A stretch of 64,000 bases of DNA, taken from contig CADBUX010000011.1 in assembly GCA_902797995.1 (NCBI GenBank), positions 1,013-65,012 of the forward strand. Reading direction: 5' to 3'. A model generated the notes under the pieces. That model was not told where the DNA came from. It ran no database searches and saw nothing but the letters and a program-made list of their open reading frames with translations. Made by a program: the position numbers and the translations under genes. Below are positions 10,210 to 42,500 of the stretch, in pieces. The DNA is from an uncultured Erysipelotrichaceae bacterium (lineage in GTDB: Bacteria > Bacillota_I > Bacilli_A > RF39 > UBA660). The stretch's first letter is position 1, and every line of letters starts with the position of its first letter.

Positions 10210-10286
10210 TGGTCGGGAAGACAGGATTTGAACCTGCAACCCCTTGGTCCCAAACCAAGTGCTCTACCAAGTTGAGCCACTTCCCG
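10210..10286 (-). tRNA. tRNA-Pro (anticodon UGG)
   Basis: Manual fold: acceptor CGGGAAG/CTTCCCG, anticodon loop TTTGGGA, T-loop TTCAAAT, encoded CCA. Confidence 0.85.
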
Positions 10287-10293
10287 AAATATA

Positions 10294-10370
<77 letters not shown>

Positions 10371-15170: not shown

Positions 15171-15833
15171 CTATTTTATTTTACTATATATTTCATCATT
15201 TATTTCTTCAATAGTTCTAAAATTGTTATCCTTTACACACTCGATTATAGTCCAATTAAAGAATTTTGAACAATACATAGCACTATTATATACTTTTTTC
15301 ATAAATTCTAAATCTTTTTCGTGAATATCTCCTTTTATTTGTTCGCCTTTTTCTTGTAATCTTTTGTTTCTTAAATCTGTTATAAAATCAAATGGTGCGG
15401 TTAAAAATATTACTATGTCGGGTTTTTTTATACCTAATTTATTAAATTCAAAATCTGTTACATAGTTTAAAAAATTATTTTTTTCTTCTTCATTTTCGAT
15501 TAAAGCTGATTGATAAATTAAACTAGAACTCGTATATCTATCAAGTAGTACTATTTGATTATTGTTATACGCTTTTTTTAGTTTATTTTCCCATGTTATT
15601 TTTCTATCAACTGCGTATAAACTATTAACAAAGTAAGGAGAAATCTCACTTGGTTTACCAAATGATCCTTTTAAATATTCCATTACTGGTACTCCTTGAT
15701 ACTCTTCATATGTAGGAAAATGATGACTAACTACTTTATTGCCATCTTTTTCTAAACGTTCTTTTAAAAGATTAAACTGAGTGCTTTTTCCTATACCGTC
15801 AAGGGCTCCTTCGATTACTATTAGTTTTCCCAC
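15171..15833 (-). CDS. tmk: thymidylate kinase (chromosomal copy)
   Basis: P-loop IEGALDGIGKST and DRY...SSLIYQ motif. Adjacent to folA-thyA. Confidence 0.7.
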   Translation of the reverse strand: MGKLIVIEGALDGIGKSTQFNLLKERLEKDGNKVVSHHFPTYEEYQGVPVMEYLKGSFGKPSEISPYFVNSLYAVDRKITWENKLKKAYNNNQIVLLDRYTSSSLIYQSALIENEEEKNNFLNYVTDFEFNKLGIKKPDIVIFLTAPFDFITDLRNKRLQEKGEQIKGDIHEKDLEFMKKVYNSAMYCSKFFNWTIIECVKDNNFRTIEEINDEIYSKIK

Positions 15834-15834
15834 T

Positions 15835-16299
15835 TTACCACTTCTTTCTATACACTACAAATGAGTAATTTAAATTTTTATATCTTTCCTTTTTTATTGT
15901 TTCTTTATTATATAAATCTTTATTAAATTCTGGAAAATATGTATCTGCATCTTTTTCATCTTCAATTTCGGTTAAATAGATGTTACTTGCATATGGCAAG
16001 AACTTTTTATATATAGATTCTCCTCCGATAACAAAAACTTCTTCTTTTATATTTAGTATCTTGTTTTTATTATTAACTACTTCTACATCATTTATTTTTA
16101 TATTTTTTCTTGTTAATACTATGTTTTTTCTATTTGGAAGAGGCTTTCCTATACTTTCATAGGTTTTTCTTCCCATGACTATAGTTTTACCTGTTGTTAG
16201 TTTTTGAAAATATTTTAAATCATTTGGAATACTCCAGAGAAGATTACCATCTTTACCTATTTCTAGATTTTTACCTACTGCTGCGATAATACTTATCAT
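15835..16299 (-). CDS. folA: dihydrofolate reductase
   Basis: IIAAVGKN..IG.DG.LLW and TIVMGRKTYESIG signature. Confidence 0.85.
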   Translation of the reverse strand: MISIIAAVGKNLEIGKDGNLLWSIPNDLKYFQKLTTGKTIVMGRKTYESIGKPLPNRKNIVLTRKNIKINDVEVVNNKNKILNIKEEVFVIGGESIYKKFLPYASNIYLTEIEDEKDADTYFPEFNKDLYNKETIKKERYKNLNYSFVVYRKKW

Positions 16300-17198
16300 T
16301 GTGATATAGGAAAAGATATTTTTCCATGATGTTTATAGTTTCTAACATTGATATCTTTTAACTCTCTTGAATTGTCAAAATCATAAAAATCTGTTATTTC
16401 AGGATTAATCCAAAGTTCTGGAGCAGGCAAATCTTCAAGTTCTTCTCCACGTCTTATTTGTTCTTTTATTCCATCAACTTGATTTACATAAATATGAGCA
16501 TCTTTTATTGACCAGTCTATAGTACCTGGTTTTTTATTTGTAACTTGTGCTATTAGTGATAAAAGTGTTGCGTACTGAGTAACGTTAAATGGTAGTCCTA
16601 AGGGAACGTCACAACTTCTTTGATGCACCATTAAATTAAGAGTATCTTCTGTTACGTCCCATTCACTACTCCATACGCATGATGGAAGTACTGCGGTATC
16701 TAAAAATTCATCTTGCCATAAACTCATTACCATTCTTCTGTCTGTTGGATTGTTCTTAATTTTATCTATTAGTTTGTCTATCATATGATAATGATTAACT
16801 ATCCAGCCATAGGCTGTTCCTATAGTATGTGCCCACTCTTTTCCAAAATCTTTTACTATTTCTTTTTTTTCTAGTTTTCCTTCTTCATTTACTACATTTT
16901 GGGTAGCATGCCAAAGTCCATTTTCATCTATTTCCCATTCATCCCAGATATGATTGCCTCTTTCTTGGAGCCATCTAACATCGTTACTTTGCGCTTGATA
17001 TATCCAAAGTATTTCAGTTATTGCGTTTTTAAAAAACAATTGTTTAGTTGTTAAAACTGGAAATTCTTCCTGCAAGTCAAAATGAAAACTATAACTTGGT
17101 ATTTTGATAGTATTTGTACCTGTTCTATTTTCTACTTCTTTTCCTTCTTCGAGTATTTTTTTGCACAGTTTTAGATATTCTATATCCCATTTTGCCAT
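16296..17198 (-). CDS. thyA: thymidylate synthase ThyA
   Basis: Conserved PSC.W active-site region, overall ThyA pattern, and overlap with folA. Confidence 0.9.
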   Translation of the reverse strand: MAKWDIEYLKLCKKILEEGKEVENRTGTNTIKIPSYSFHFDLQEEFPVLTTKQLFFKNAITEILWIYQAQSNDVRWLQERGNHIWDEWEIDENGLWHATQNVVNEEGKLEKKEIVKDFGKEWAHTIGTAYGWIVNHYHMIDKLIDKIKNNPTDRRMVMSLWQDEFLDTAVLPSCVWSSEWDVTEDTLNLMVHQRSCDVPLGLPFNVTQYATLLSLIAQVTNKKPGTIDWSIKDAHIYVNQVDGIKEQIRRGEELEDLPAPELWINPEITDFYDFDNSRELKDINVRNYKHHGKISFPISQ

Positions 17199-17257
17199 AT
17201 AAAAACCTCCTTTTATATTATATCATAAGTAATGTCTTGATAATTTAATGTATTTTT

Positions 17258-29428: not shown

Positions 29429-30982
29429 TTATCTTAAGAAATCTTTAAGTGCTCGACTTCTTGATGGATGTCTTAATTTTCTTAGTGCTTGAGCTTCAAT
29501 TTGTCTAATACGTTCACGAGTTACCCCATACTCTTTACCAATTACTTCTAAAGTTCTAGGATCTTTTCCATCTAGACCAAATCTAAGTATCATTACATTT
29601 CGTTCTCTTTCTGATAAACTCTCCATAGCGCTCATAAGGGCATTACGTAATTCGTGTTGTTCTACATTTTCTTCAGTTACATCGCTTTCATCCGGTATAA
29701 AATCTATTAAATAACTATCTTCATCTTCTCCAATGGTAGCATATAACGACACTATATCTTGTCCATACCTTATAATATCCTCAACTTTTTCTACACTAAC
29801 ATGTAATGCTTCTGCTAACTCTTCATTATTTGGATTTCTATTTAATTTTTGACGCAAATGACTTTTTTCTCTTTTTAATTTATAAATTGATTCTACCATA
29901 TGAACAGGCACCCTAATTGTACGATCATTATCTGCCTTAGAACGAGAAATTGATTGTCTTATCCACCATATAGCATATGTTGAAAATTTAAATCCTTTTG
30001 TTATGTCAAATCTTTCCACAGCTTTCATAAGCCCAAGGTTACCTTCTTGAATCAAATCAGAAACGGATAATACTTTTTCATGTGATGATGCATACTTAAT
30101 AGCAACAGACATTACTAATCCAAGATTAGCATTTATAATATGATAATTAATTTCTTTCTCTTTTTGTTGTAAAGAATCATATTTTTTTATTAAATCTCTA
30201 CATGATTCAGGAAGACTTTCTAAATTCTGTTCTCGTTCATTAATAAGATCATTACATATCATACGAGATACTTTTTCTTCTTCTTGTTGATATTGTTTAT
30301 ATAGTTTTTGAAGCTCACCTTTAATAAATGTATATTGTGAAACTGACCTATCATTTTCATTAGTAGTTAAATCATCAGAATTTTTTATTTCTTCTAGTCT
30401 ATTTTTTAGTTTCATCATTTCCTTAACTGCTTCTTTTTCAGAAATCTTGAAATCTTTAATTCTTTTTTTACATGTCTCAGGAATGTTATCTGGATTATTT
30501 TTATTCTCTTTTATTACTTGTTTCCAAACAATTTTTCTAATACGCTCCATTTCATCCTCAATAATTTTCTTATTGGTAAATAACTCAACTTCTTCTTCCT
30601 GAGTAAGTAATTCTGTTCTGTGAACTTCCTTAGAATATTGTTTTACAACATCTAAACCACGATTATACCCCTTAACTTTTTTTTCTTGTTTATCGCTTTC
30701 TTCATCCTCTACAAATTCTTCCTCATAATCTGTAGTTGTTAATATTATATTATTAGATTCAAGGTATTTTTCTATTGAATCCCTAACCTCACTATATTTT
30801 GATAATCTGTGAATTTCTTCCATACTAACTTCACTACGATTAGAAAAACGACTATCTAAAGCTTTCTTTAAATCCGATCTTTCAATTATATCACGTTTAA
30901 TAGAATCATCGATGTTATCGTTTTCTCTATATCCATTGTTTTTTAATTCTTTTTCTATTTGCTTTATTATTTTTTCTAACAT
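29429..30982 (-). CDS. sigA: primary sigma factor RpoD/SigA with long non-conserved insertion
   Basis: Region 2.4/3 IRQSISR...RTIRVPVHMVE and region 4.2 GVTRERIRQIEAQALRKLRHPSRS are diagnostic for group-1 sigma. 517 aa because of a charged insertion of about 150 aa between regions 1.2 and 2. Confidence 0.85.
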   Translation of the reverse strand: MLEKIIKQIEKELKNNGYRENDNIDDSIKRDIIERSDLKKALDSRFSNRSEVSMEEIHRLSKYSEVRDSIEKYLESNNIILTTTDYEEEFVEDEESDKQEKKVKGYNRGLDVVKQYSKEVHRTELLTQEEEVELFTNKKIIEDEMERIRKIVWKQVIKENKNNPDNIPETCKKRIKDFKISEKEAVKEMMKLKNRLEEIKNSDDLTTNENDRSVSQYTFIKGELQKLYKQYQQEEEKVSRMICNDLINEREQNLESLPESCRDLIKKYDSLQQKEKEINYHIINANLGLVMSVAIKYASSHEKVLSVSDLIQEGNLGLMKAVERFDITKGFKFSTYAIWWIRQSISRSKADNDRTIRVPVHMVESIYKLKREKSHLRQKLNRNPNNEELAEALHVSVEKVEDIIRYGQDIVSLYATIGEDEDSYLIDFIPDESDVTEENVEQHELRNALMSAMESLSERERNVMILRFGLDGKDPRTLEVIGKEYGVTRERIRQIEAQALRKLRHPSRSRALKDFLR

Positions 30983-30994
30983 ACAATCACCTTC

Positions 30995-32104
30995 TTAATA
31001 TAAGCCTTTCTTCTCGGCTAGTGTTTTTATTTTAACTTCTCCGCTTTTTTGAATCTGACGTATTCTCTCAGCTGACAAGTTTAATTCCTCTCCCACATCT
31101 TTTAATGTGGCAGGTTCATTATCATATAAACCATAACGCTTAATTAATACTATCCTTTCATTTTTAGTTATCGATTTATTCTCTAATAATTCTCTTATAT
31201 CTTCTTGCTCTTTTTTATCCATTACTTCTTTTTCACTATCATTAGATTCATCTAATATATAGTCCTTTAACTCGTTAGGTTTAGGATTATTATACATATT
31301 AATTGGAGTTTCAAGACTAATCGTAGTAGGAAGTGCAAGTATTTTTTCTAAAGCTTCCTTCTTTATATTAAGCAGTCTTGCGAATTCTTCTTTAGTTTTA
31401 TCATCATTCATGTATAAAAATGTACCATTTTCTTTATAATAGTCTATTTTTAATTTGTTTAGCTTGTGTAATAGTTCATGAACATGCTTTGGATATTTTA
31501 TAATTCTAGATTTTTCTGCTATCGCAATACTAATTTTTTGAATTATCCATTGTGTAGCATATGTTGAAAACTTATATCCTAATGTGACATCAAATTTATC
31601 AACAGCTACCATAAGACCAACATTTCCTTCTTGGATTAAATCTTGAAGAGATAATCCATTATTTTGATAAAGTGTTGCGTATTTTATTACTAATCTAAGA
31701 TTAGCATTTATAATTCTATCTTTAATTTTTTGATATTCATCAAAATCTTTTGCAGTTTTTAATCTAATAAATAGTTGTTTTTCTTCTTCAGGCGTTAATA
31801 AAGGAATTCTATTTATATCTTTAAAATACAATGCTAATGTATCTAAATCATCTTTTCCTATTCCTGTAACATAAGAATCACTATTAATTAATGTAATACC
31901 TTTTTCATATAAATATAATGTTATTATATTTTGAAGTTTTATATCTCTAGTAAGGTTTTTTAATTCACTTTTAGTGATACTTTTCTTGTTTTTAAATAAT
32001 GTATTTAACTCTTTTTTTATGCTGTCATTATTTAGGATATCATATGGTGTCATAGTAGGATCTTTCTGCAACTGAGAAATCATATTAATAACATTATAAT
32101 TCAT
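30995..32104 (-). CDS. second sigma-70 family factor (divergent, non-primary)
   Basis: Region 2 (DLIQEGNVGLMVAVDKFD, YKFSTYATQWI) and region 4 HTH (LKDVGEELNLSAERIRQI). Lacks the RpoD box. Immediately upstream of sigA. Confidence 0.7.
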   Translation of the reverse strand: MNYNVINMISQLQKDPTMTPYDILNNDSIKKELNTLFKNKKSITKSELKNLTRDIKLQNIITLYLYEKGITLINSDSYVTGIGKDDLDTLALYFKDINRIPLLTPEEEKQLFIRLKTAKDFDEYQKIKDRIINANLRLVIKYATLYQNNGLSLQDLIQEGNVGLMVAVDKFDVTLGYKFSTYATQWIIQKISIAIAEKSRIIKYPKHVHELLHKLNKLKIDYYKENGTFLYMNDDKTKEEFARLLNIKKEALEKILALPTTISLETPINMYNNPKPNELKDYILDESNDSEKEVMDKKEQEDIRELLENKSITKNERIVLIKRYGLYDNEPATLKDVGEELNLSAERIRQIQKSGEVKIKTLAEKKGLY

Positions 32105-32308: not shown

Positions 32309-33028
32309 TTATCTATAAAAAACAGCTTTTTTGAATAGATAAATATCAAGTTTATTATATAAAAAATTAAATACTTTTTGAGAAATTAGTTTTTTACCTA
32401 TCAATGTAAGAACAAAACTAGAAACATAAACTATTATAACAATAATGAGACCTCTTAATTCTACTAAATGATTATTAATTAAACCATTTACACCACTTGA
32501 CACTAGTATATAAATTAAAAAGAAAGTAAGAAGTACAATAATAGGATATATATAATAAAAAGTAATCATAATAATATCACTAAGTAAGAAACTAATGAAC
32601 GCTAAACCAATTATAAACCATTTTAAAATAAAACAGAAAAAGCTTTCTATGGAAACTAATATCAAGGATACTATTTTTTTTACTGTTTTTATATTTTTAC
32701 TATTTAAGTATTCTCTTAAGTATTCCCATTTAGTAACTGTCTTGTTTTCGTATTCAGAATAGTTATAAGGGCTTTTAGATTCTCTTCTTGTACCTGAATA
32801 TTTTTCATAAGTATTAGTTTCTTTATGTTTTAAGAAATCATCATATTCTTTCCTTTTTATTTCATCTAATAAAATATCTTTAGCTTCATTTATTTTCATA
32901 GACATAGAAACAGCATCTTTATCTTTATTGATATCTGGATGCCATTTTTTCATTTGAGCTTTGTAAGCTTTTTTAATTTCTTCTTTTGTAGCATTATTAC
33001 TTATTCCTAAAAGATCATAATAGTTCAT
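32309..33028 (-). CDS. J-domain (DnaJ-like) membrane protein
   Basis: N-terminal J domain (YYDLLGIS..ATKEEIKKAYK...KWHPDIN) followed by four hydrophobic helices. Confidence 0.6.
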   Translation of the reverse strand: MNYYDLLGISNNATKEEIKKAYKAQMKKWHPDINKDKDAVSMSMKINEAKDILLDEIKRKEYDDFLKHKETNTYEKYSGTRRESKSPYNYSEYENKTVTKWEYLREYLNSKNIKTVKKIVSLILVSIESFFCFILKWFIIGLAFISFLLSDIIMITFYYIYPIIVLLTFFLIYILVSSGVNGLINNHLVELRGLIIVIIVYVSSFVLTLIGKKLISQKVFNFLYNKLDIYLFKKAVFYR

Positions 33029-33179
33029 ATAATCACCAACAAGTACATTTTAGCACAAAAAAAAGAACTATAAAAGCTCCTTATTTTTCTATGGAGCAAT
33101 AGTTGAGTAATTACACAACTTTTTTCCAAATTGAAATGATATATAAATCATCCATCTAAAAAAATTATATCATATTATT

Positions 33180-33374
33180 TCAATTTTTTAAATAAGCATT
33201 TTTATCATCGTCTGTAAAATAATTATCAAACCATCTATATTCAAATATACATTCTTCATTAATATCATTATCAATGTATTGGGAACCATCATACAAGGCA
33301 TATTGTAATAATTGATATAGTTTTTCTTTATCTTTCATATTCACGCTTACTATTTCATAATTCATATTAATCAC
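33180..33374 (-). CDS. hypothetical 64-aa protein (last gene of cargo operon)
   Basis: Short acidic ORF followed by hairpin plus T-run terminator at about 33085-33110. Confidence 0.3.
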   Translation of the reverse strand: MINMNYEIVSVNMKDKEKLYQLLQYALYDGSQYIDNDINEECIFEYRWFDNYFTDDDKNAYLKN

Positions 33375-33559
33375 CAGCCTATAAATATTATATCATAGAA
33401 AAAGATTAAGTTTTCACTTAATCTCTTAGAAATTAATTTTTGCTTCCTTGCTTGATAGCAGCTTGTACTGCGGAAATAATTGGAATTGCAGTAAATTTTT
33501 ATTTATTGTCTAAAATGATTTATTTAACAATTCTTATTTTATTGAATATTAGCATTGCA

Positions 33560-33874
33560 TTATATTTCTTCATATTCTTTAATTCTTGTGTTTACACCAT
33601 CTATTATTTTATACTCACGATGCTTATTTTTATTTATCTTATTTATTAATTCCTTTTCAAGATCTATGTTTAATATTTCCGATAGTCCAAGCAAATAAAT
33701 CATTGCATCAGCTATTTCTTCACCAACATCATCTTTTTTCTTTCTCCACGCTTCATACGCTTCAGCTACTTCTCCATAAGTTAAACAAAATTCTTTATTT
33801 ATATCTGTCACATTAAAGCCTTTATCTAGTTTATTTTGATATACATCTTTTTGTAATTTTTTTAAATCTATCAT
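33560..33874 (-). CDS. MazG-like nucleoside triphosphate pyrophosphohydrolase (small all-alpha type)
   Basis: EF.LTYGEVAEAYEAWRK and EEIADAMIYLLGLSEILNIDLE match the metal-binding E-x-x-E/D pattern of single-domain MazG/YpjD-like NTP-PPases. Confidence 0.7.
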   Translation of the reverse strand: MIDLKKLQKDVYQNKLDKGFNVTDINKEFCLTYGEVAEAYEAWRKKKDDVGEEIADAMIYLLGLSEILNIDLEKELINKINKNKHREYKIIDGVNTRIKEYEEI

Positions 33875-34461
33875 TATTTTTCCTCCAAAACTTTATTAAT
33901 TATCTTTCTTATTTCAAAAATTCTTTTTTCCATAAATTCAGGATGATCTTTAAACCATTTAATATTAAGTGGTGATGGATGAGGTAATACTATTGCTAGT
34001 TTTCCATTAATATAACTATCTTTAAATATTAAATCATTAAAATTTTCACTAGGAAAAAATACTTTTGCTGATTTTGCTCCAATAATAATATATAGTTCAT
34101 TATTTATATACTCTAATTCCTTTTTAATCCATGTTTCATAGCAAATCTTTGGTGGCATTCTATCATTTCCATTTTTATCTTTTCCAGGGTAGCAATGAGA
34201 AAGAGCAGCAATATAGAAATTATCAGGATTATAAAAAATTGCATCATCAATCATATACCATTCATATTTTAATTTTTTTCCACTTAAATCAGTAAATGGT
34301 TTTAATGTTTGATGGACTGTAGCAGAAGGTGCTTGACTAATTTGAACAATTTTGGAATTTATATTTCCTAGTATTATAGGATGTGGTCGAAAGCCAAATT
34401 TTTCTTTACAAATTTCACATTTTTTTAATTGTGATATTAGTTGATCAAATTCTTTTTGCAT
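33874..34461 (-). CDS. uracil-DNA glycosylase superfamily protein (family unassigned)
   Basis: C-terminal motif LPHPSPLN equals UDG motif B (HPSPL[SN]). An N-terminal Q-A-P-S segment lies in the motif A position. 195 aa. Confidence 0.5.
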   Translation of the reverse strand: MQKEFDQLISQLKKCEICKEKFGFRPHPIILGNINSKIVQISQAPSATVHQTLKPFTDLSGKKLKYEWYMIDDAIFYNPDNFYIAALSHCYPGKDKNGNDRMPPKICYETWIKKELEYINNELYIIIGAKSAKVFFPSENFNDLIFKDSYINGKLAIVLPHPSPLNIKWFKDHPEFMEKRIFEIRKIINKVLEEK

Positions 34462-35032
34462 TATTTTTTCTAAACTCCTCTAATTTTTGTAAAACCTCGT
34501 TAAAGATTTGTTCAATTGGCTTCATACCATCAATGTATATCAAATTATTCTCATTTAAAATGGATGAGTAAGCTTTTCTAACTTTGCCTAAATGTTCCAC
34601 TGATGATTTAATATTGAACTTTGTATCTATATTTCGATTCACAGATTCTTCTGGAGTAATATCAATAAAGAAGCCAATATCTGCCTTTGGAAATACTGAA
34701 TTGATATTTAAAACAAAATCTTTATCTACACCTTCTGCCATTCTATATGCAATAGCGGATGGTACATATCTATCAAATAGTAATATTTTATTATTTAAAT
34801 CATCACTGCTAATACTTTTCATTCTTATATATCTGTCAGCTGCAAATAAATAAGCTTTTAAAATTGAATCTAAAGTGCCTTCAATTGCCATTTTCTTTAG
34901 CTCTATACCAATGTTGGTTTCAAATTCCTTTGATACTTCAGCATCTAGTCCAATATTTATATAATAATCCTTTAACATTTGAACTAACGTTGTTTTACCA
35001 CAATTGTCTAATCCTTCAAAAATAACTATCAA
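34445..35032 (-). CDS. thymidylate kinase-like dNMP kinase (element-borne paralog), TTG start
   Basis: P-loop FEGLDNCGKTT and LFDRY...SAIAYR Tmk motif. The start is TTG (complement of caa at 35030-35032), preceded by RBS AGAGGTGA. Confidence 0.7.
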   Translation of the reverse strand: MIVIFEGLDNCGKTTLVQMLKDYYINIGLDAEVSKEFETNIGIELKKMAIEGTLDSILKAYLFAADRYIRMKSISSDDLNNKILLFDRYVPSAIAYRMAEGVDKDFVLNINSVFPKADIGFFIDITPEESVNRNIDTKFNIKSSVEHLGKVRKAYSSILNENNLIYIDGMKPIEQIFNEVLQKLEEFRKNNAKRI

Positions 35033-35053
35033 ATTATATCACCTCTTATTAGC

Positions 35054-35095
35054 ATTATATCATAAGAAAAGACTAAGAAATTATAATTCGTAGTC
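35054..35095 (-). promoter_or_regulatory. putative extended -10 promoter (TGaTATAAT) for the tmk-like/UDG-like/MazG-like operon
   Basis: Minus-strand TGaTATAAT about 20 nt upstream of the RBS, immediately after an upstream hairpin terminator. Confidence 0.3.
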
Positions 35096-35106
35096 TTTTT
35101 TTTAGC
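35066..35106. terminator. bidirectional hairpin terminator between the unknown-function cargo genes and the nucleotide-enzyme operon
   Basis: Hairpin gactaag..cgtagtc with a T8 run on the plus strand and a T-rich tail on the minus strand. Confidence 0.4.
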
Positions 35107-35237
35107 TTAATTATTTATTTTTTAAATTTGCTTGCCCCGCAGTAAAGATTGGAACAATAAAGAACCAATTCGCGGACTAAGATAACTATTTATGTTATTT
35201 TATAACAATAATTTTCTTTATTTAATTGTGCAATTTT

Positions 35238-36182
35238 TTAATTTTGTATTACTTTTTCTAAAACTCTTGGTTTAACAAATTCTAATTCCCATTGTTGAGG
35301 TCTTAATTGATGCATTTGTTTACAAAATTGGATTTCTTCCCATATTCTATCTGTAGTTTCTTTATCACCATAGAACTTTAATAATGCATCATAAGAATAC
35401 TCATACAATTCGTTCCTTTCAAACAAAGGCATTGGGTTTCCTTTATAATTTGCATGATCATTAGCAATACCCCATTCCCATTGTTCTAATGTTTCATCAT
35501 AAACTTCGTCATTAGTCCAAAAATCCATTATTAATTTTTGTTTTTCCTCTAATGACCAATTTGGATTTCTAAGTATCCAATATCTTATATCAAAATCTCC
35601 TGAGCCATGTGCTTGAGTATCACTTAATGAACTAAATAAACTAGCCATATACATATTACCAGTTTTAGCACCTACAGGATTAATCGAACCTCCAAATTCA
35701 GTATACACAGTTTGTTCATTTGTAATACCTTTTTCATCTAATTCTTTAGAATATTCATTCATAGCATTTTTGTATCTAGTAGTACCTATTTTATTCATTG
35801 CTTCATCAACTGCAAATGCTTTTTGATCTTCTGTTAATTTTAAATTAGGATTCCATAAAGTCATTAGTAAATATGAATAACCACCATTACTATAACCATC
35901 TAAAACAATTCTAGCAATTTGTCTATTAGAATAAATCAAGTCTACAAGTTTTTGATACACTTCATTATCAACATTATTAAAATCAACAAGCATATCCTCA
36001 CATATTGCTAAACCATTTACTAAATCTCTTTCTCCAAATTTATCTTTAGTTGGTTTGATTGCCCATTCTAATAATTCTTTATTATTTTTAATTGAATTCC
36101 AAATTTCTTCTGGATTTCCAACTTTTTTATCACAATCTCTTGCATAATATAGTTTATCATCTATTTTTCTAAAATCTTCCAT
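35238..36182 (-). CDS. hypothetical protein (314 aa, cargo gene D)
   Basis: Long ORF with coding-like composition and no motif I can recognise. W/Y-rich C-terminal half. Confidence 0.4.
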   Translation of the reverse strand: MEDFRKIDDKLYYARDCDKKVGNPEEIWNSIKNNKELLEWAIKPTKDKFGERDLVNGLAICEDMLVDFNNVDNEVYQKLVDLIYSNRQIARIVLDGYSNGGYSYLLMTLWNPNLKLTEDQKAFAVDEAMNKIGTTRYKNAMNEYSKELDEKGITNEQTVYTEFGGSINPVGAKTGNMYMASLFSSLSDTQAHGSGDFDIRYWILRNPNWSLEEKQKLIMDFWTNDEVYDETLEQWEWGIANDHANYKGNPMPLFERNELYEYSYDALLKFYGDKETTDRIWEEIQFCKQMHQLRPQQWELEFVKPRVLEKVIQN

Positions 36183-36271
36183 ACTAAACCTCCCCGAATA
36201 TATTTTTATTTTAACATAAAAAAAACTAGATTTCTCTAGTTTTCAATTATATTTTTATTTATTTCAATTTT

Positions 36272-36868
36272 TTATATAATTAACCTTTTTGCTTGTTCCT
36301 GATCAGTTCTTATTGCTTCTCCAACAAACTCAGCTTGTACTTTATAAAATAACTCTGGATCAGAAAAGAAACTTTTTCCTTCAGGTGGATAAATTATATT
36401 ATCAGCATTTTTAATTCTAAATAATTCTCTATTTTTTCCATTTTCTTTCTTATCAGAAGGCCCAAAAGAATAACCTGGTTGTTGGAGATTCCAATATGTA
36501 TCTTCATAATCGCTTATTCTTTTTCCTGTTATACAGTTTATTATTGGTTCATGAGAACGTAAATAACAATATATTGGATAATTATCATCTTTTAATAATT
36601 CTTCAGTAAATAAGTAATTACACATCTCATGTTTCAAAAAATCATATAATAAATTATCTATTTCTAAATAATTCATTATTTTTTCTTCTTTATACTCAAT
36701 GCATTCAGCAAATTCTCTAACTTTTTCATCTTTTAATAATTCATGGATTCTTTGTATATTCTCATTCATTTTTTTTATTATTTGATTTTGATCAGAAATG
36801 TATTGTTCTTGTAATTTTCTCCAAGAAGGATATTCTTCTTTAACTATTCTTATAAAGTCTTCAGTCAT
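36272..36868 (-). CDS. hypothetical protein (198 aa, cargo gene C)
   Basis: ORF with no recognizable domain. Confidence 0.4.
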   Translation of the reverse strand: MTEDFIRIVKEEYPSWRKLQEQYISDQNQIIKKMNENIQRIHELLKDEKVREFAECIEYKEEKIMNYLEIDNLLYDFLKHEMCNYLFTEELLKDDNYPIYCYLRSHEPIINCITGKRISDYEDTYWNLQQPGYSFGPSDKKENGKNRELFRIKNADNIIYPPEGKSFFSDPELFYKVQAEFVGEAIRTDQEQAKRLII

Positions 36869-36953
36869 ATTATCAGCCCTTTACTGGTGAATTATTATAA
36901 CATATTCTTTCAACTCTTTCAATAAAAATTCAAAAGAAACTAATTTTCATAAT

Positions 36954-37340
36954 CTAGTTTCTTTTATATAAATTGTAGTTCTTATCTTTTTCCTGTCTTC
37001 GTTCTTGCACTCTTTCTTCACTATATATACCAACAGTTTGAATACAAGCATACATAAATGATTCAATTCTTTCTTTATCTTCTTGATTAAACTCAGATAA
37101 TAATTGTTCTTTCTCTAAAGCTATTTCTTCATTTGACAATTCTTCTTCAATATCTATTTTACTTATAATTTTTAATATTAAAAGCATAGCTTTTGAACAA
37201 GCATCACAAAACTTTTCATTTGGATCATTTAAACACATATCAACATAATCCATATATACTTTCTCTTCATCACTTAAATTTTCATATTCTGAAATATATT
37301 TATAATTATAAAGTTTTAATATCATTATCATTTTATCCAT
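36954..37340 (-). CDS. hypothetical protein (128 aa, cargo gene B)
   Basis: Small acidic ORF with a Cys pair (CDAC). Confidence 0.35.
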   Translation of the reverse strand: MDKMIMILKLYNYKYISEYENLSDEEKVYMDYVDMCLNDPNEKFCDACSKAMLLILKIISKIDIEEELSNEEIALEKEQLLSEFNQEDKERIESFMYACIQTVGIYSEERVQERRQEKDKNYNLYKRN

Positions 37341-37428
37341 ACTTTTAAATCTCCCTAATCAGTTATACAACTAATCATATCAAAAACTTTATTGTTTAGC
37401 ATTTTATAATTCTTTTATTGCATTGTTC

Positions 37429-38229
37429 TCATTTTTTCTTGATTTTTTGTTTATTATTATTTTGGTGTTTTGGTTTAATTGTTTCTATCAAATCATTTGT
37501 TTCTATTTTATTTATATCAACACCATTCTCTTTAATAAAAGACATAAAAGACATAACAGCATTAGCTAACTCATCATCTTGTAAGTAAAATACAATAGGA
37601 TGATGAAATCCCAAAGTTTGCTTATTAGGTAGGTTCAATTCTTCAGTTACATATTCATCGTTTCCAAACAAAACTACCGAAGAACCATATCTATATATTT
37701 CTTCTATTTTTTTTCGCATCAGATATGAATTTTTTTCATTACTGAACTTAGCTAATGCCTCTTTTTCAGCTAATATAGTAACTTCTCCGGTGTATTCATC
37801 AACTGTACGATAACCATGTTTTTCACTACTATCATATGTTGGATATTTTATTGTTTTTATTTCATATTGAATTGATTCATCGCTTGCTAATTGTCTTAAA
37901 ATCCTAAAAACTTTTTCATACTGTTCTTCATCCATAGATGAATCCTTTATATTTCTTGAAGCGTTTTCATAGTGTCCTATTTTTGTAATAATACCTCTTA
38001 GTATTAATTCATTCATTTGTTTTAGTAATTCTAATCTTTTTACTAAATCTTTAGCAATTTCTTTTCGTCCTAAAATCTTTTGTTGATAATCATTTTCAAG
38101 CGATACAAATTCAGAATAAAGGTTATAAAAATCTTTAATATCCTCTTGAGTGATTTGATATTCCATAATTTTATTATAATCTCCTGGCTTAACATTAAGT
38201 AATATTTCTTTTAAATTTTCCGCAGTCAT
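37429..38229 (-). CDS. hypothetical protein (266 aa, cargo gene A)
   Basis: ORF with no recognizable domain. Follows the relaxase gene. Confidence 0.4.
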   Translation of the reverse strand: MTAENLKEILLNVKPGDYNKIMEYQITQEDIKDFYNLYSEFVSLENDYQQKILGRKEIAKDLVKRLELLKQMNELILRGIITKIGHYENASRNIKDSSMDEEQYEKVFRILRQLASDESIQYEIKTIKYPTYDSSEKHGYRTVDEYTGEVTILAEKEALAKFSNEKNSYLMRKKIEEIYRYGSSVVLFGNDEYVTEELNLPNKQTLGFHHPIVFYLQDDELANAVMSFMSFIKENGVDINKIETNDLIETIKPKHQNNNKQKIKKK

Positions 38230-38292
38230 GACAAACCTCCCTTTGACTAAATTATTATATTATATTTAAAGATTTTAATCAATGCTATACTA

Positions 38293-39660
38293 TTATATTT
38301 CATAATCATCTTTTTCTTTGTCTTTTATATCATCCCAGCCTGTAATTCTATCAAGTGTTTTTTCACTCATAATTTGATGATTATACATATCACTAATAAC
38401 TTCTGCATAAACATCTTCTTTATCTTTTCTATGAAACATTCTTTTTAAGAAGTTAACTAGTTTTTCAAATAAGTGTTTTAATTCTTGAAGTTCATATTTT
38501 AAATTAAAGTTGTCTTTTCTATATTCATCAATTTGTTTTTCTTGTATTTCTACTTTTTCACTTAAAGTATCTACTCTTAATTGTAATGCATCATTACTTT
38601 CTTTTAAGTTTTTAATTCTTCTAGAATCCTGTCTAGCTTGTTTAGTAATGATATTTAAGTTTGCCGATAATTCTTTAACATCTCTATATTCATCAGTTGT
38701 TTTATCAACTTTATCAATATAATCTTCCAGCTTATCCTTTTGTTCTTTAGAAATGATAAATAAATCATCTCTTAAAGGAACTTTTTTAAGTTTATTTATT
38801 TCTTCTTTTATATTATTAGAATTAGTTTTTAACTCTAATGAATTATTACTTATTGAATCTATTTCTTTTTGATGTTTTTCAATTAGTTCTTTTGTTTCTT
38901 GATAGTTAGTCATATCAGCTACATTGATATCTCTATTTCTACCTTTCATTTTTTGTTTTAAAGTAGCATCTAGATTATATTCTTTGTTGTATTCTTCGAT
39001 ACATAAAGTTCTCATTTTATCTTGTAATTGCATTAAAGAAGTTCTAGTAAATACATCGGTTTTACCAACTTGTTTACTCATACCAGTTTTACAATTATAT
39101 TTTATTGGAACACCTACAATATGCATGTGAGGACTTGTTTCATCATAATGAATAATAGCACTACATACTTTAAAGTTTGGCATTAACAATTCTAAATCAT
39201 CAACTTGTTTTGAATAAACATTAGTCATTTTATGTTTATAGTCCAAATCTTTTGTATCCCAAAACTTCTTATCTCCAAGTTCAATAATAATCTCACAAGC
39301 TAAATCACTTTTAGAATTATCACTTACTTTTTTGAAGTAGTCATCGATCTTTCTATCCTGTCTTGTTTGTTTATTATTGTATTCTAATCTTGCTTCTTCA
39401 AATTCAGTTTTATAAAAATCTTCTACATCTTTGTATAGGGAAGAAGTACCTTTTACAATTACAATTTGTTCTTGTTCGTTGTCATATTTTCTATAATTAT
39501 GCTTATCACATTTTGATAATGTTTTAGCATTTTGTATTCCGTTATTAGTCATTGAAGTTGTTCCACTAATATTATTTTTAGCAGAACTTCTAACACTATT
39601 TTTTCTATTTTTATTACTTCCCAAATGTAGAGAATATGGAAGCTCACTTATATTAATCAT
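38293..39660 (-). CDS. plasmid recombination/mobilization protein, MobV (Mob/Pre) relaxase
   Basis: Motif IIHYDETSPHMHIVGVP matches the HxDE...PHxH signature of MobM (pMV158) and Pre proteins. Long coiled-coil C-terminus as in MobM/TnpZ. Confidence 0.85.
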   Translation of the reverse strand: MINISELPYSLHLGSNKNRKNSVRSSAKNNISGTTSMTNNGIQNAKTLSKCDKHNYRKYDNEQEQIVIVKGTSSLYKDVEDFYKTEFEEARLEYNNKQTRQDRKIDDYFKKVSDNSKSDLACEIIIELGDKKFWDTKDLDYKHKMTNVYSKQVDDLELLMPNFKVCSAIIHYDETSPHMHIVGVPIKYNCKTGMSKQVGKTDVFTRTSLMQLQDKMRTLCIEEYNKEYNLDATLKQKMKGRNRDINVADMTNYQETKELIEKHQKEIDSISNNSLELKTNSNNIKEEINKLKKVPLRDDLFIISKEQKDKLEDYIDKVDKTTDEYRDVKELSANLNIITKQARQDSRRIKNLKESNDALQLRVDTLSEKVEIQEKQIDEYRKDNFNLKYELQELKHLFEKLVNFLKRMFHRKDKEDVYAEVISDMYNHQIMSEKTLDRITGWDDIKDKEKDDYEI

Positions 39661-39708
39661 CTCCTTTCTTATGGCTCAATTTTGGCTTGTCAAAATGTAT
39701 AACCCCCT

Positions 39709-39760
39709 AGATATCTTGTCATGCTAACAAGATATCAGTGGGCTAAGGAATATTCCTTAG
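39709..39760. promoter_or_regulatory. candidate oriT / RS_A-like site upstream of the mob gene
   Basis: Two adjacent palindromes: agatatcttgt-N7-acaagatatca (39709-39737) and a perfect 18-bp palindrome ctaaggaatattccttag (39743-39760). Confidence 0.3.
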
Positions 39761-39916
39761 AATCCTTTATTCAATACTTTGTAATGAAACTATGTACTAC
39801 ATACTTTCAAAACTTCGTATTGTATGGATGAAAATATTTTATCTTCATAAAACATTTTCTTTTGTAAAAATGCTATCGCCACTTTCATTACTTTGTAACA
39901 AAACGTGCCACGCATT

Positions 39917-41916
<2,000 letters not shown>

Positions 41917-42046
41917 AAAATAATTGATATTAAAAATATTTATATTTTTGTTTTTGTGTTTATATTTCATAGATGTACCTCCATTTCTAGAGCATACCTC
42001 TTTCATTGGTTATATATAATATCACTTTTGAAAATAATGTCAATAG

Positions 42047-42319
42047 TTATAGATTTTTAATAAACTCTTGTAAATCACTAATTTTAATATGTTTTTGTAA
42101 ATTTTCTACATAAACATCTCTACCATGATTAAAAGCTAGAAATGTTGTACCTTTGATGATTATTTTATTTGGCTCTATATAATTAATATTTGTTTTCTCA
42201 ACCTTACGAATAGAACCATTGATAAATGTTGGAGTAGTATTACAAAAATCACAAATAAACTGGATTCTTGTTTTAAGTTCCTCATCAATAGGTATTTCCT
42301 TTGTTATAACTTTTAACAT
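42047..42319 (-). CDS. hypothetical 90-aa protein between tRNA-Gly and the recombinase
   Basis: ORF with a Cys pair (CDFC) and no recognizable domain. Confidence 0.35.
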   Translation of the reverse strand: MLKVITKEIPIDEELKTRIQFICDFCNTTPTFINGSIRKVEKTNINYIEPNKIIIKGTTFLAFNHGRDVYVENLQKHIKISDLQEFIKNL

Positions 42320-42357
42320 AATTCACCATCCTTTCTTTGGACGGATGATTTATAAAC

Positions 42358-42384
42358 ACAAAAAAATCTATCTCTCGATAGATT
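42358..42384 (-). terminator. rho-independent terminator downstream of tRNA-Gly
   Basis: Hairpin atctatc-tctcg-gatagat, followed on the minus strand by a T7 run. Confidence 0.45.
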
Positions 42385-42425
42385 TATATATCAAACTCGG
42401 TAATCGTTCCGAGCAGATTCCTCAA

Positions 42426-42500
42426 TGGAGCGGACGAGGAGAATCGAACTCCCATCCTAGCCTTGGCAAGGCCATGTTCTAACCATTAAACCACATCCGC
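42426..42500 (-). tRNA. tRNA-Gly (anticodon GCC)
   Basis: Manual fold: acceptor GCGGATG/CGTCCGC, anticodon loop TTGCCAA, T-loop TTCGATT, encoded CCA. Confidence 0.85.

What the first reader, a model, noticed from the sequence alone, without database searches (positions are those of the whole stretch)
33560..35095. Compact operon: thymidylate-kinase paralog, UDG-superfamily glycosylase, MazG-like NTP pyrophosphohydrolase
Three genes overlap: the tmk-like and UDG-like genes by 17 nt, and the UDG-like and MazG-like genes share an ATGA junction. They have their own extended -10 promoter (TGaTATAAT) after a terminator. The host already has a chromosomal tmk at 15171-15833, so the element copy is a dedicated paralog. 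The trio makes functional sense as a 'uracil-exclusion / thymidine nucleotide sanitation' module: MazG-type enzymes can hydrolyse dUTP or non-canonical dNTPs, Tmk makes dTDP, and UDG removes uracil from DNA. Similar dNMP-kinase plus MazG sets build hypermodified pyrimidines in phages, or deplete nucleotides in defence systems. A UDG homolog with a divergent motif A (Q-A-P-S instead of GQDPY/GEAPG) may have an altered specificity, such as a modified-base glycosylase.
Basis: partly seen in the sequence, partly recalled or inferred. Interest (0 to 1): 0.7.

Follow-up and report, generated by a model that had tools for sequence, protein, structure and literature searches.

The report
Mobile thymidylate-kinase, glycosylase, pyrophosphatase operon
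Three tightly packed genes for a thymidylate kinase, an uncharacterised iron-sulfur uracil-glycosylase relative and a small nucleotide pyrophosphatase travel together as the cargo of small self-integrating DNA elements in uncultured gut bacteria. They most likely keep wrong pyrimidine bases out of DNA, but no substrate has been tested.

Summary
On the minus strand, tmk-like (34445-35032), UDG-superfamily (33874-34461) and MazG-like (33560-33874) genes form one compact operon.

The operon is cargo of a 9.3-kb integrative mobilizable element (about 33098-42424). The element has a large serine recombinase and a MobV relaxase and sits at the 3' end of tRNA-Gly. An empty site exists in sister contigs.

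The trio recurs in 21 of 70 species-level genomes of uncultured gut Bacilli. It is the only cargo of a 4.3-kb minimal element that is 98% identical at two sites. All three genes are under purifying selection (dN/dS 0.06-0.15).

tmk is repeatedly lost by two deletions, a frameshift and a nonsense codon. UDG is the persistent core.

The glycosylase belongs to a compact, uncharacterised family. It keeps the family-4 Fe-S cysteines, the motif-2 His and the stacking Phe. It has ISQAPS in motif 1 and lacks the uracil-reading Asn.

No phage relatives, defence-database hits or papers were found.

The best reading is a mobile pyrimidine-nucleotide sanitation and base-excision module. Anti-phage defence against modified-thymidine phages is not excluded. 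I class it as a new variant of a known kind, of moderate interest.

The parts
34445..35032 (-). tmk-like gene (195 aa, TTG start): dTMP-kinase family, first gene of the operon
   Evidence: PF02223 E 1.9e-28. TIGR00041 101.9 bits, above the 83.25 cutoff. Best PDB match is Aquifex Tmk 2pbr, E 3e-18. P-loop GLDNCGKTT, FDRY and the lid Arg are conserved in 21 cassette copies. dN/dS 0.15.
33874..34461 (-). UDG-superfamily glycosylase gene (195 aa) of an uncharacterised Fe-S-type family with signatures ISQAPS and LPHPSPLNIKWFKDHP
   Evidence: PF03167 E 7e-20. AF2 model pLDDT 80.5. Foldseek best hits are 3ikb (E 1e-11), then family-4 UDGa and UdgX. Four Cys align with the Fe-S ligands of 1ui0. dN/dS 0.11.
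33560..33874 (-). MazG-like all-alpha NTP pyrophosphohydrolase gene (104 aa), last gene of the operon
   Evidence: PF12643 26.6 bits against a cutoff of 27. PHROG 3301 E 8e-15. PDB hits 4qgp, DCTPP1 and 2q73. The acidic E-x-x-E ... E-E-x-x-D residues are conserved. dN/dS 0.057.
35054..35064 (-). Extended -10 promoter-like motif TATGATATAAT, 22 nt upstream of the tmk start
   Evidence: Sequence. The 11-mer occurs 5 times in the window against 0.38 expected, also upstream of host thyA and the 64-aa ORF.
35068..35098 (-). Weak AT-rich hairpin with a short U-tract upstream of the promoter (possible terminator of the preceding 314-aa gene)
   Evidence: RNA fold (z = -2.05). It does not pass the terminator scan.
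33400..33427 (-). 12-bp hairpin followed by a U-run downstream of mazG: likely operon terminator
   Evidence: RNA fold.
33180..33374 (-). 64-aa ORF with its own TATGATATAAT motif (33387-33397). It is the last gene of the 9.3-kb element. No known domain.
   Evidence: Present after mazG in all copies of this element type. No Pfam, PADLOC or PHROG hit.
33098..42424 (-). 9.3-kb integrative mobilizable element carrying the operon at its distal end
   Evidence: The empty site RmuC-tRNA-Gly-DnaJ is contiguous in L094 and L096. Both junctions share GCTCCAT. The same element is >99% identical at other chromosomal sites.
39917..41845 (-). Large serine recombinase (642 aa), the element's integrase
   Evidence: Resolvase, Recombinase and Zn_ribbon_recom domains. 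CcrB and XisF models hit well below their cutoffs.
38293..39660 (-). MobV / Mob_Pre relaxase (455 aa)
   Evidence: PF01076 E 3.4e-13. NF041497 MobV 33 bits, below cutoff.
42047..42319 (-). 90-aa ORF that always precedes the recombinase in this element family. Function unknown.
   Evidence: Homologs (37-70% identity) lie next to the recombinase in L039, L042, L044, L046, L047 and L087-L092. No Pfam or NCBIfam hit.
42426..42500 (-). tRNA-Gly(GCC); its 3' end is the integration site
   Evidence: ARAGORN. Junction analysis. Related elements sit beside tRNA-Gly genes.
15171..15833 (-). Host tmk-like gene, last gene of the thyA (16296-17198) - dfr (15835-16299) - tmk operon. It is not part of the element.
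   Evidence: NCBIfam hits to dTMP kinase are below cutoff (75.9 against 83.25); thyA and dfr hits. 31% identity to the element Tmk.

Best explanation
The locus is a horizontally mobile accessory operon for pyrimidine-nucleotide sanitation and base excision. It is carried as cargo at the distal end of tRNA-Gly-targeting serine-recombinase elements in uncultured gut Bacilli.

Shown:
- Three overlapping, co-transcribed genes lie behind one host-type extended -10 promoter.
- All three are under purifying selection.
- The cassette recurs across many species and many insertion sites.
- In a 4.3-kb minimal element it is the only cargo.

Inferred mechanism:
- The MazG-type pyrophosphatase hydrolyses a non-canonical pyrimidine dNTP to the monophosphate. 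dUTP is the most likely substrate; a 5-substituted dUTP or dCTP is possible.
- The Fe-S UDG-family glycosylase removes the corresponding base (uracil or a 5-substituted uracil) from DNA.
- The Tmk pushes dTMP to dTDP, which raises the dTTP:dUTP ratio.
- In one sub-lineage a fourth gene of the nucleoside 2-deoxyribosyltransferase / dNMP N-hydrolase family would destroy the unwanted dNMP.

The glycosylase is the core of the module. MazG is its usual partner. Tmk is an optional booster that is often lost. The benefit may go to the host (these lineages resemble Tenericutes, which often lack dut), to newly arrived element DNA, or to both.
For: - Family assignments and intact catalytic motifs.
- UDG fold.
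- Tight spacing, from a 17-nt overlap to +5 nt, is kept in 21 of 70 species-representative loci. Identities there are Tmk 71-89%, UDG 82-87%, MazG 81-91%.
- dN/dS is 0.15, 0.11 and 0.057.
- MazG and UDG are also adjacent, in the other order, in Enterococcus sp. HY326, where the UDG is only 48% identical.
- A Nuc_deoxyrib_tr gene follows mazG in L017, L018, L020, L039 and L077.
- The element is delimited by an empty site.
- The minimal element (recombinase plus trio only) is 98% identical at two different sites. Its MazG protein is seen on at least 1000 contigs.
- UDG-only orthologs sit in a semi-conserved chromosomal position beside an amidase gene in about 15 species. That is typical of a repair gene and not of a defence gene.
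- Literature: 74% of Tenericutes genomes lack dut; mobile elements commonly carry dUTPase or a UDG inhibitor; MazG-type enzymes can cleave dUTP (PMC5122711).
- From established knowledge: poxviruses encode the same triad of UDG, dUTPase and thymidylate kinase.
Against: - No substrate is known for any of the three proteins.
- The Asn that reads the uracil face in family-4 UDGs (Tth N89) is Ala here, and motif 1 is ISQAPS. Uracil may therefore not be the target.
- MazG and Tmk act in opposite directions on nucleotides. They only make sense together if their specificities differ.
- tmk is inactivated independently many times. There are two different deletions in the window's element type, and the deleted form makes up about 19 of 23 contigs read. 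There is also a frameshift and a nonsense codon in 3 of 6 minimal-element copies, and pseudogenes in L017 and L077.
- Many genomes keep UDG alone. The three functions are therefore not obligately coupled.
- Whether hosts lack dut or ung could not be checked.
Confidence: 0.5

Rival explanations
1. The cassette is an anti-phage defence module against phages whose DNA carries a thymidine substitute (dU, 5-hmdU or hypermodified dU). The UDG-fold glycosylase would excise the foreign base from phage DNA, as Brig1 and Brig2 do. MazG would drain the modified dNTP. The deoxyribosyltransferase-like protein, where present, would destroy the dNMP. Tmk would keep host dTTP supplied.
For: - UDG-fold glycosylases are proven defence effectors and are often on mobile elements (PMC11078745; bioRxiv 10.1101/2025.10.29.685425).
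- The cassette is cargo of mobile elements that pile up at a tRNA-Gly hotspot beside Abi, restriction-modification and RhuM genes.
- The uracil-reading Asn is missing, which hints at another substrate.
- Recurrent recent loss of tmk alongside long-term purifying selection fits episodic selection on a costly accessory trait.
Against: - PADLOC gives nothing for UDG or MazG, although that database predates Brig1.
- UDG-only orthologs occupy a conserved chromosomal position across about 15 species, which is unusual for defence genes.
- Some trio copies sit next to uvrB, a repair context.
- No modified-base phage is known for these uncultured hosts.
- Brig1 was not among the top 50 Foldseek PDB hits.
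Confidence: 0.2
2. The module serves the element and not the host. After transfer or excision it would protect newly synthesised element DNA from uracil incorporation and destructive host repair in hosts with a high dUTP/dTTP ratio. This is the role proposed for phage dUTPases and the SCCmec UDG inhibitor.
For: - It is the only cargo of a minimal serine-recombinase element. In the window it sits on an element with a relaxase, which transfers as single-stranded DNA.
- The literature argues that mobile elements need dUTPase or a UDG inhibitor (PMC5122711).
Against: - The trio also occurs with no recombinase detected nearby, for example next to uvrB in L022 and L077.
- A glycosylase would harm uracil-containing incoming single-stranded DNA.
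- The operon has a constitutive-looking host-type promoter and no transfer-linked signal.
Confidence: 0.15
3. There is no joint function. Three individually useful housekeeping-type genes happen to be linked and hitch-hike on mobile elements. The glycosylase is an ordinary repair enzyme, and tmk and mazG are decaying passengers.
For: - UDG occurs alone in more than half of the loci.
- tmk, and sometimes mazG (frameshift in L009), are lost repeatedly.
- The family sizes differ: 267 Tmk, 1012 UDG and 2212 MazG relatives.
Against: - Gene order and overlapping junctions are kept across lineages with up to about 30% protein divergence.
- All three genes show dN/dS of 0.15 or less.
- The trio is more conserved (71-91%) than the recombinases that carry it (40-61%).
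- MazG-UDG adjacency recurs in a distant Enterococcus.
- A fourth nucleotide-metabolism gene joins the cassette in one sub-lineage.
Confidence: 0.15

Closest known systems
Family 4 uracil-DNA glycosylases (UDGa; Thermus 1UI0, Thermotoga 1L9G/1VK2, Sulfolobus 4ZBX), UdgX, and the uncharacterised S. mutans protein 3IKB
   Same: - UDG alpha/beta fold.
- Four cysteines at the positions of the family-4 [4Fe-4S] ligands.
- Stacking Phe after motif 1 and His in motif 2 (HPSP).
   Different: - Motif 1 is ISQAPS, not GE(A/G)PG. It starts with Ser and has Gln as in family 1.
- The motif-3 Asn (Tth N89) is Ala.
- It scores far below the TIGR00758 and NF040953 cutoffs.
- There is no UdgX KRRIH loop.
- 3IKB (25% identity) lacks the cysteines and has no known activity.
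- The family is compact, with 26 clusters at 50% identity at E<=1e-30. As far as the searched literature shows, it is biochemically uncharacterised.
The uracil/thymidylate gene set of large eukaryotic DNA viruses: vaccinia D4 UDG, F2 dUTPase and A48 thymidylate kinase; herpesvirus UNG plus dUTPase (established knowledge; PMC6212821 for gammaherpesvirus)
   Same: The same three activities are predicted, carried by a mobile replicon, to keep uracil out of DNA whatever the state of the host.
   Different: - Here the carrier is a non-replicating integrative element, not a virus.
- The genes form one overlapping operon.
- The pyrophosphatase is MazG-type, not a trimeric dUTPase.
- The glycosylase is not family 1.
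- The activities are untested.
Uracil-metabolism genes on Firmicute mobile elements: phage and SaPI-linked dUTPases, and the UDG inhibitor SaUGI on SCCmec (PMC5122711)
   Same: - Mobile elements, including serine-recombinase (ccr) cassettes, carry genes that alter dUTP levels or uracil excision.
- The hosts often lack dut.
   Different: - SCCmec carries an inhibitor of UDG, whereas this element carries a UDG.
- The recombinase here hits the Ccr models only far below cutoff.
House-cleaning MazG-type enzymes: DCTPP1/RS21-C6, and integron-cassette iMazG (PDB 2Q73/2Q5Z, identity recalled from memory). MazG-type enzymes that cleave dUTP are noted in PMC5122711.
   Same: A small all-alpha MazG domain with conserved acidic metal ligands. 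These are the best PDB sequence hits. There is precedent for such an enzyme on a mobile gene cassette.
   Different: The similarity is only weak (E 2e-4 to 0.5). The substrate is unknown. Here it is translationally linked to a glycosylase.
Brig1 and Brig2 defence glycosylases (PMC11078745; bioRxiv 10.1101/2025.10.29.685425)
   Same: UDG-superfamily fold closest to family 4, location on mobile or variable DNA, and a possibly non-uracil substrate.
   Different: - No sequence or profile link could be shown.
- Brig proteins act alone, whereas this one is linked to nucleotide-pool enzymes.
- Many orthologs sit in a conserved chromosomal position.

Membership tests
UDG superfamily (Pfam PF03167) | Significant profile match above the curated cutoff | tested here: met
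   71.9 bits against a cutoff of 24.3, E 7.3e-20.
UDG superfamily (Pfam PF03167) | UDG alpha/beta fold | tested here: met
   AF2 model pLDDT 80.5, pTM 0.81. Foldseek probability 1.00 to 3ikb, 1ui0, 1l9g, 4zbx and UdgX.
Family 4 UDG (UDGa) | Motif 1 GE(A/G)PG | tested here: not met
   ISQAPS, nearly invariant across 63 family members.
Family 4 UDG (UDGa) | Curated family models TIGR00758 / NF040953 reached | tested here: not met
   32.4 bits against 125.3, and 33.8 bits against 250.
Family 4 UDG (UDGa) | Four Cys ligands of the [4Fe-4S] cluster | tested here: met
   C15, C18, C90 and C107 align with the Cys of Tth UDGa. They are invariant in close relatives and kept in most distant ones. Cluster binding itself was not tested.
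Family 4 UDG (UDGa) | Motif-3 Asn (Tth N89) that reads uracil and positions water (PMC5387724) | tested here: not met
   It aligns with Ala86. The position is Ala, Ser or Asp across the family.
Family 4 / family 1 UDG | Motif-2 His that stabilises the leaving base | tested here: met
   H161 in LPHPSPLN is invariant.
Family 1 UNG | Motif 1 GQDPY with the water-activating Asp | tested here: not met
   SQAPS has Ala in place of Asp. SMUG1, MUG and UNG-type structures match only marginally.
Family 6 hypoxanthine-DNA glycosylase | Absence of the motif-2 His (as stated in PMC5387724) | tested here: not met
   The His is present and invariant. The founding paper was not held, so motif 1 of family 6 could not be compared.
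UdgX | Extra loop with KRRIH carrying the cross-linking His | tested here: not met
   No such motif in the 195-aa sequence. UdgX structures match only at fold level, 14-17% identity.
Brig1/Brig2 defence glycosylases | Excision of a phage-specific modified base and protection against phage | not testable with these tools
   No Brig sequence was available; the stored supplement is truncated. PADLOC 2023 has no hit.
dTMP kinase (TIGR00041 equivalog) | Score above the trusted cutoff | tested here: met
   101.9 bits against 83.25.
dTMP kinase (TIGR00041 equivalog) | P-loop GxxxxGKT, DR(Y/F) motif and lid Arg | tested here: met
   GLDNCGKTT, FDRY and NRN are conserved in 21 cassette copies. Nucleotide specificity was not tested.
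MazG / all-alpha NTP pyrophosphohydrolase | Profile match above the curated cutoff | tested here: inconclusive
   PF12643 26.6 bits against 27, and PF03819 19.6 against 22. PHROG 3301 E 8e-15. Close homologs carry precomputed PF12643.
MazG / all-alpha NTP pyrophosphohydrolase | Acidic metal-binding residues E-x-x-E ... E-x-x-D | tested here: met
   EVAEAYE and GEEIAD are conserved in 32 copies and align to 4qgp and DCTPP1.
Integrative mobilizable element | Site-specific recombinase plus relaxase, no conjugation machinery, defined ends with an empty site | tested here: met
   Serine recombinase and Mob_Pre. Empty site and GCTCCAT core. The remaining five ORFs have no domain hit, so absence of transfer genes is inferred.
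SCC-type cassette (ccr recombinases) | CcrA, CcrB or CcrC equivalog score | tested here: not met
   CcrB 124.7 bits against a cutoff of 900.

The most novel reading that the evidence does not exclude
The Tmk-UDG-MazG cassette, with a deoxyribosyltransferase-like fourth gene in some lineages, is a new multi-enzyme anti-phage system. It would be spread by minimal serine-recombinase elements in gut Bacilli and would attack phages with non-canonical thymidine at three levels: dNTP pool, dNMP pool and DNA. Its effector would be a new Fe-S UDG family with a non-uracil specificity.
Probability: 0.17. Interest if true: 0.8.

Novelty: new variant of a known kind. Interest (0 to 1): 0.5.

Why it matters
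If the module is a sanitation unit, a complete 'keep uracil out of DNA' toolkit circulates as a plug-in among reduced-genome gut bacteria. Until now that toolkit was known as a gene set of poxviruses and herpesviruses. This would help explain how lineages without dut or ung cope.

The locus also flags a compact, conserved UDG family with an Fe-S cluster, ISQAPS in motif 1 and no uracil-reading Asn. No activity has been reported for it. The family is abundant in human gut metagenomes and worth biochemical study.

The 4.3-kb minimal element consists of a recombinase plus this operon alone. It is a clean natural experiment on what a small integrative element gains from such cargo.

Tried and rejected
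- Megablast of the 21-kb region against phage and plasmid collections gave no match.
- tblastn of the UDG against phages, and viral-contig scans with all three proteins, found no relatives. A phage origin or a phage hypermodification pathway was therefore rejected.
- PADLOC gave no hit for UDG or MazG. Tmk gave only weak P-loop-type hits to PDC-M51B, VakA and AriA. It is not a known defence system.
- The idea of a recent duplication of host tmk was rejected. Identity is 31% over 109 aa.
- I first thought the UDG was a standalone chromosomal gene captured by the element, because its closest non-identical homologs (91% and 78%) are alone. This was revised. L001 keeps 46 nt of the tmk 3' end and 63 nt of the mazG 5' end, so at least that copy is a decayed trio.
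- The Listeria seeligeri plasmid pLIS4 has a 60.6% identical homolog with an overlapping upstream 109-aa ORF. That ORF is not MazG-like.
- HMM searches for diverged Tmk or MazG next to distant UDG homologs found only two marginal MazG-like ORFs, in L063 and L064.
- Literature searches for the SQAPS motif and for the three-gene combination found nothing.
- The family-6 founding paper is not held. The Brig2 sequence is not in the stored supplement. The afdb50 fold library is unavailable.
- The BFVD fold search returned only generic phage UDG and PolA-fused UDG-like domains.
Full report
**1. What is in the sequence**

The three ORFs are on the minus strand.
- A 195-aa Tmk-like protein at 34445-35032. 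It has a TTG start seven bases after AAGAGGTG.
- A 195-aa UDG-superfamily protein at 33874-34461.
- A 104-aa MazG-like protein at 33560-33874.

tmk and UDG overlap by 17 nt. UDG and mazG overlap by one base in TAATG.

The family assignments hold.
- Thymidylate_kin, E 1.9e-28; TIGR00041 101.9 bits against a cutoff of 83.25.
- UDG PF03167, 71.9 bits against 24.3.
- MazG-like PF12643, 26.6 bits against 27; PHROG 'pyrophosphatase', E 8e-15.

TATGATATAAT lies 22 nt upstream of the tmk start. It occurs five times in the window against 0.38 expected, including upstream of the host thyA operon. It is therefore a host-type extended -10 promoter.

The hairpin before it is weak. A clearer hairpin plus U-run follows mazG.

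**2. Context: a mobile element**

The genes upstream on the same strand are, in order:
- a tRNA-Gly(GCC);
- a 90-aa ORF;
- a 642-aa large serine recombinase;
- a Mob_Pre/MobV relaxase;
- four ORFs with no known domain.

On both sides lie ordinary chromosomal genes of a spore-forming, 27% G+C member of the Bacilli. They include ftsAZ, spoIVA, ftsY, priA, gerA, sigma factors, efp, holA, rmuC and pcrA.

Contigs from the same species have RmuC, tRNA-Gly and DnaJ contiguous (L094, L096). The insert is therefore window ~33098-42424 (9.3 kb), with GCTCCAT at both junctions at the 3' end of the tRNA.

Proteins identical to those of the window occur in the same element at three or more other chromosomal sites. 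This is an integrative mobilizable element, and the trio is at its far end.

**3. The host tmk**

15171-15833 is the last gene of a thyA-dfr-tmk operon. It is 31% identical to the element Tmk over 109 aa. It scores lower on the dTMP-kinase equivalog than the element copy does. The element genes are not duplicates of host genes.

**4. The trio is a widespread cassette**

A scan of one genome per species found 70 loci with a relative of the glycosylase. The hosts are uncultured gut Bacilli, labelled Bacilli bacterium, Mycoplasma sp. CAG, Clostridium sp. CAG:609/628/762 or Erysipelotrichaceae.

The 70 loci break down as follows.
- 21 carry Tmk-UDG-MazG in the same order with the same tight spacing. 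Identities are Tmk 71-89%, UDG 82-87%, MazG 81-91%. In two of these the tmk is broken.
- Two or three have UDG plus MazG only.
- Three have tmk remnants.
- The rest have UDG alone.

L001 has the closest non-identical UDG (91%). It still keeps 46 nt of the tmk 3' end and 63 nt of the mazG 5' end, so it is a decayed trio.

In Enterococcus sp. HY326 a MazG (61%) sits directly upstream of a UDG that is 48% identical.

In L017, L018, L020, L039 and L077 a 313-aa protein with a Nuc_deoxyrib_tr domain follows mazG.

dN/dS (NG86) is 0.15 for tmk, 0.11 for UDG and 0.057 for mazG.

In an unsupported neighbour-joining tree, trio-linked and solitary UDGs are interleaved.

**5. A minimal element**

In Clostridium sp. 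CAG:628-like genomes a 4.27-kb unit holds only a 91-aa ORF, a 604-aa serine recombinase and the trio. It lies beside tRNA-Gly(TCC). It is 98% identical at two different sites. Its MazG protein is recorded on at least 1000 contigs.

The recombinases of the different elements are only 40-61% identical, whereas the trio is 71-91% identical.

**6. tmk is the dispensable member**

- In the window's element type, two different deletions remove tmk: 36105-34655 in L008/L010 and 35027-34548 in L009.
- The first deleted form accounts for about 19 of the 23 contigs read that carry the exact UDG protein.
- Among six minimal-element copies, two have a 1-nt frameshift and one has a nonsense codon in tmk. 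UDG and mazG stay intact in all six.
- mazG carries a frameshift in L009, which may be a homopolymer assembly error.

**7. The glycosylase family**

The AF2 model (pLDDT 80.5) matches these structures best:
- the uncharacterised S. mutans protein 3IKB (E 1e-11);
- then family-4 UDGs and UdgX;
- family 5, SMUG1, MUG and TDG only marginally.

An alignment of 63 family members shows near-invariant ISQAPS, PF(T/N)DxSG, HC(Y/F)PGK, GDxxPPxxC and LPHPSPLNIKWFKDHP. The members come from Bacilli, Paenibacillus, Enterococcus, Saccharibacteria, Cesiribacter, Methanosarcinales and Pacearchaeota.

Compared with Thermus UDGa (PMC5387724):
- the four Fe-S cysteines, the stacking Phe and the motif-2 His are kept;
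- motif 1 differs;
- the motif-3 Asn is Ala.

It fails the family-4 models. It differs from family 6, which lacks the motif-2 His, and it has no UdgX loop.

The family is compact: 26 clusters at 50% identity at E<=1e-30. I found no paper on it.

Solitary orthologs sit beside an amidase gene in about 15 species. Some trio copies sit next to uvrB.

**8. What it is not**

- No relatives exist in the phage or viral collections.
- PADLOC has no match for UDG or MazG.
- Among plasmids, only Listeria seeligeri pLIS4 has a close homolog (60.6%), and it has no MazG partner.

**9. Interpretation**

Shown:
- a conserved, selected, co-transcribed operon of three enzyme families;
- its mobility as cargo of tRNA-Gly-targeting serine-recombinase elements.

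Inferred:
- MazG hydrolyses a non-canonical pyrimidine dNTP;
- the glycosylase removes the matching base from DNA;
- Tmk raises dTDP/dTTP;
- the deoxyribosyltransferase-like protein, where present, destroys the dNMP.

This is the triad that poxviruses carry (established knowledge). It also parallels the dUTPase or UDG-inhibitor cargo of Firmicute mobile elements in hosts that often lack dut (PMC5122711).

The missing uracil-reading Asn and the mobile context leave room for a Brig-like defence role against phages with modified thymidine (PMC11078745).

The recurrent loss of tmk shows that the three functions are not obligately coupled.

**10. Verdict**

The finding is a new variant of a known kind, of moderate interest. 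The most useful leads are the uncharacterised glycosylase family and the minimal element whose only cargo is this operon.

Noticed in passing
window 29429-32104 (-): Two sigma-70 family genes lie back to back. One is a full-length 517-aa RpoD-like protein. The other is a 369-aa protein lacking region 3. The shorter one gives a strong but probably domain-level PADLOC hit to MzaA (4.4e-31) and to a phage sigma-factor PHROG.
   Followed up: no
window 32309-33028 (-): A host gene directly flanks the element. It encodes a J-domain (DnaJ) fused to a multi-pass membrane region. A third TATGATATAAT motif at 33164-33174, inside the element end, points towards it across the attachment site.
   Followed up: partly
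window 15171-17227 (-): The host thyA-dfr-tmk operon has the same TATGATATAAT promoter motif (17217-17227) as the element operon. The host Tmk scores below both NCBIfam dTMP-kinase cutoffs and best matches the actinobacterial-type model PRK07933.
   Followed up: partly
window 9371-10114 (+), next to tRNA-Pro and tRNA-Arg at 10210-10370: An MvaI/BcnI-family restriction endonuclease gene sits on the opposite strand to its neighbours, beside two tRNA genes. The partner methylase was not looked for.
   Followed up: no
L088 1-20315; L091 2568-10500: Different integrative elements form tandem arrays at tRNA-Gly. They include a tyrosine-integrase/Rep element, a second serine-recombinase element and then the trio element. 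In L088, TnpV, NUDIX, a 5-hmdU DNA kinase helical-domain protein (PF18723), a radical SAM/SPASM protein and Abi_alpha lie downstream.
   Followed up: no
L017, L018, L020, L039, L077 (gene after mazG); remnant in L024: A 313-aa protein with an N-terminal nucleoside 2-deoxyribosyltransferase domain (PF05014, E 1.5e-14) and an unassigned C-terminal half extends the cassette to four genes in one sub-lineage.
   Followed up: partly
L095 4820-5913: In another strain of the same host, an IS3-type insertion sequence (HTH_28 plus rve) occupies the same RmuC-DnaJ intergenic region where the element sits in the window.
   Followed up: no
L001 6425-9963; L050; L042: Solitary or trio UDG copies recur next to small ASCH, NUDIX and aminoglycoside-phosphotransferase-like kinase genes. 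In L001 they also lie next to a DNA methylase plus an Eco47II-type endonuclease. This may be a variable region of nucleotide-related accessory genes.
   Followed up: no
window 35238-38229 (-): Four element ORFs (314, 198, 128 and 266 aa) have no hit in Pfam, PADLOC or PHROGs; the 314- and 198-aa ORFs also have none in NCBIfam. The 314-aa, 198-aa and 128-aa genes are missing from the commonest variant of the element (L008 type).
   Followed up: partly
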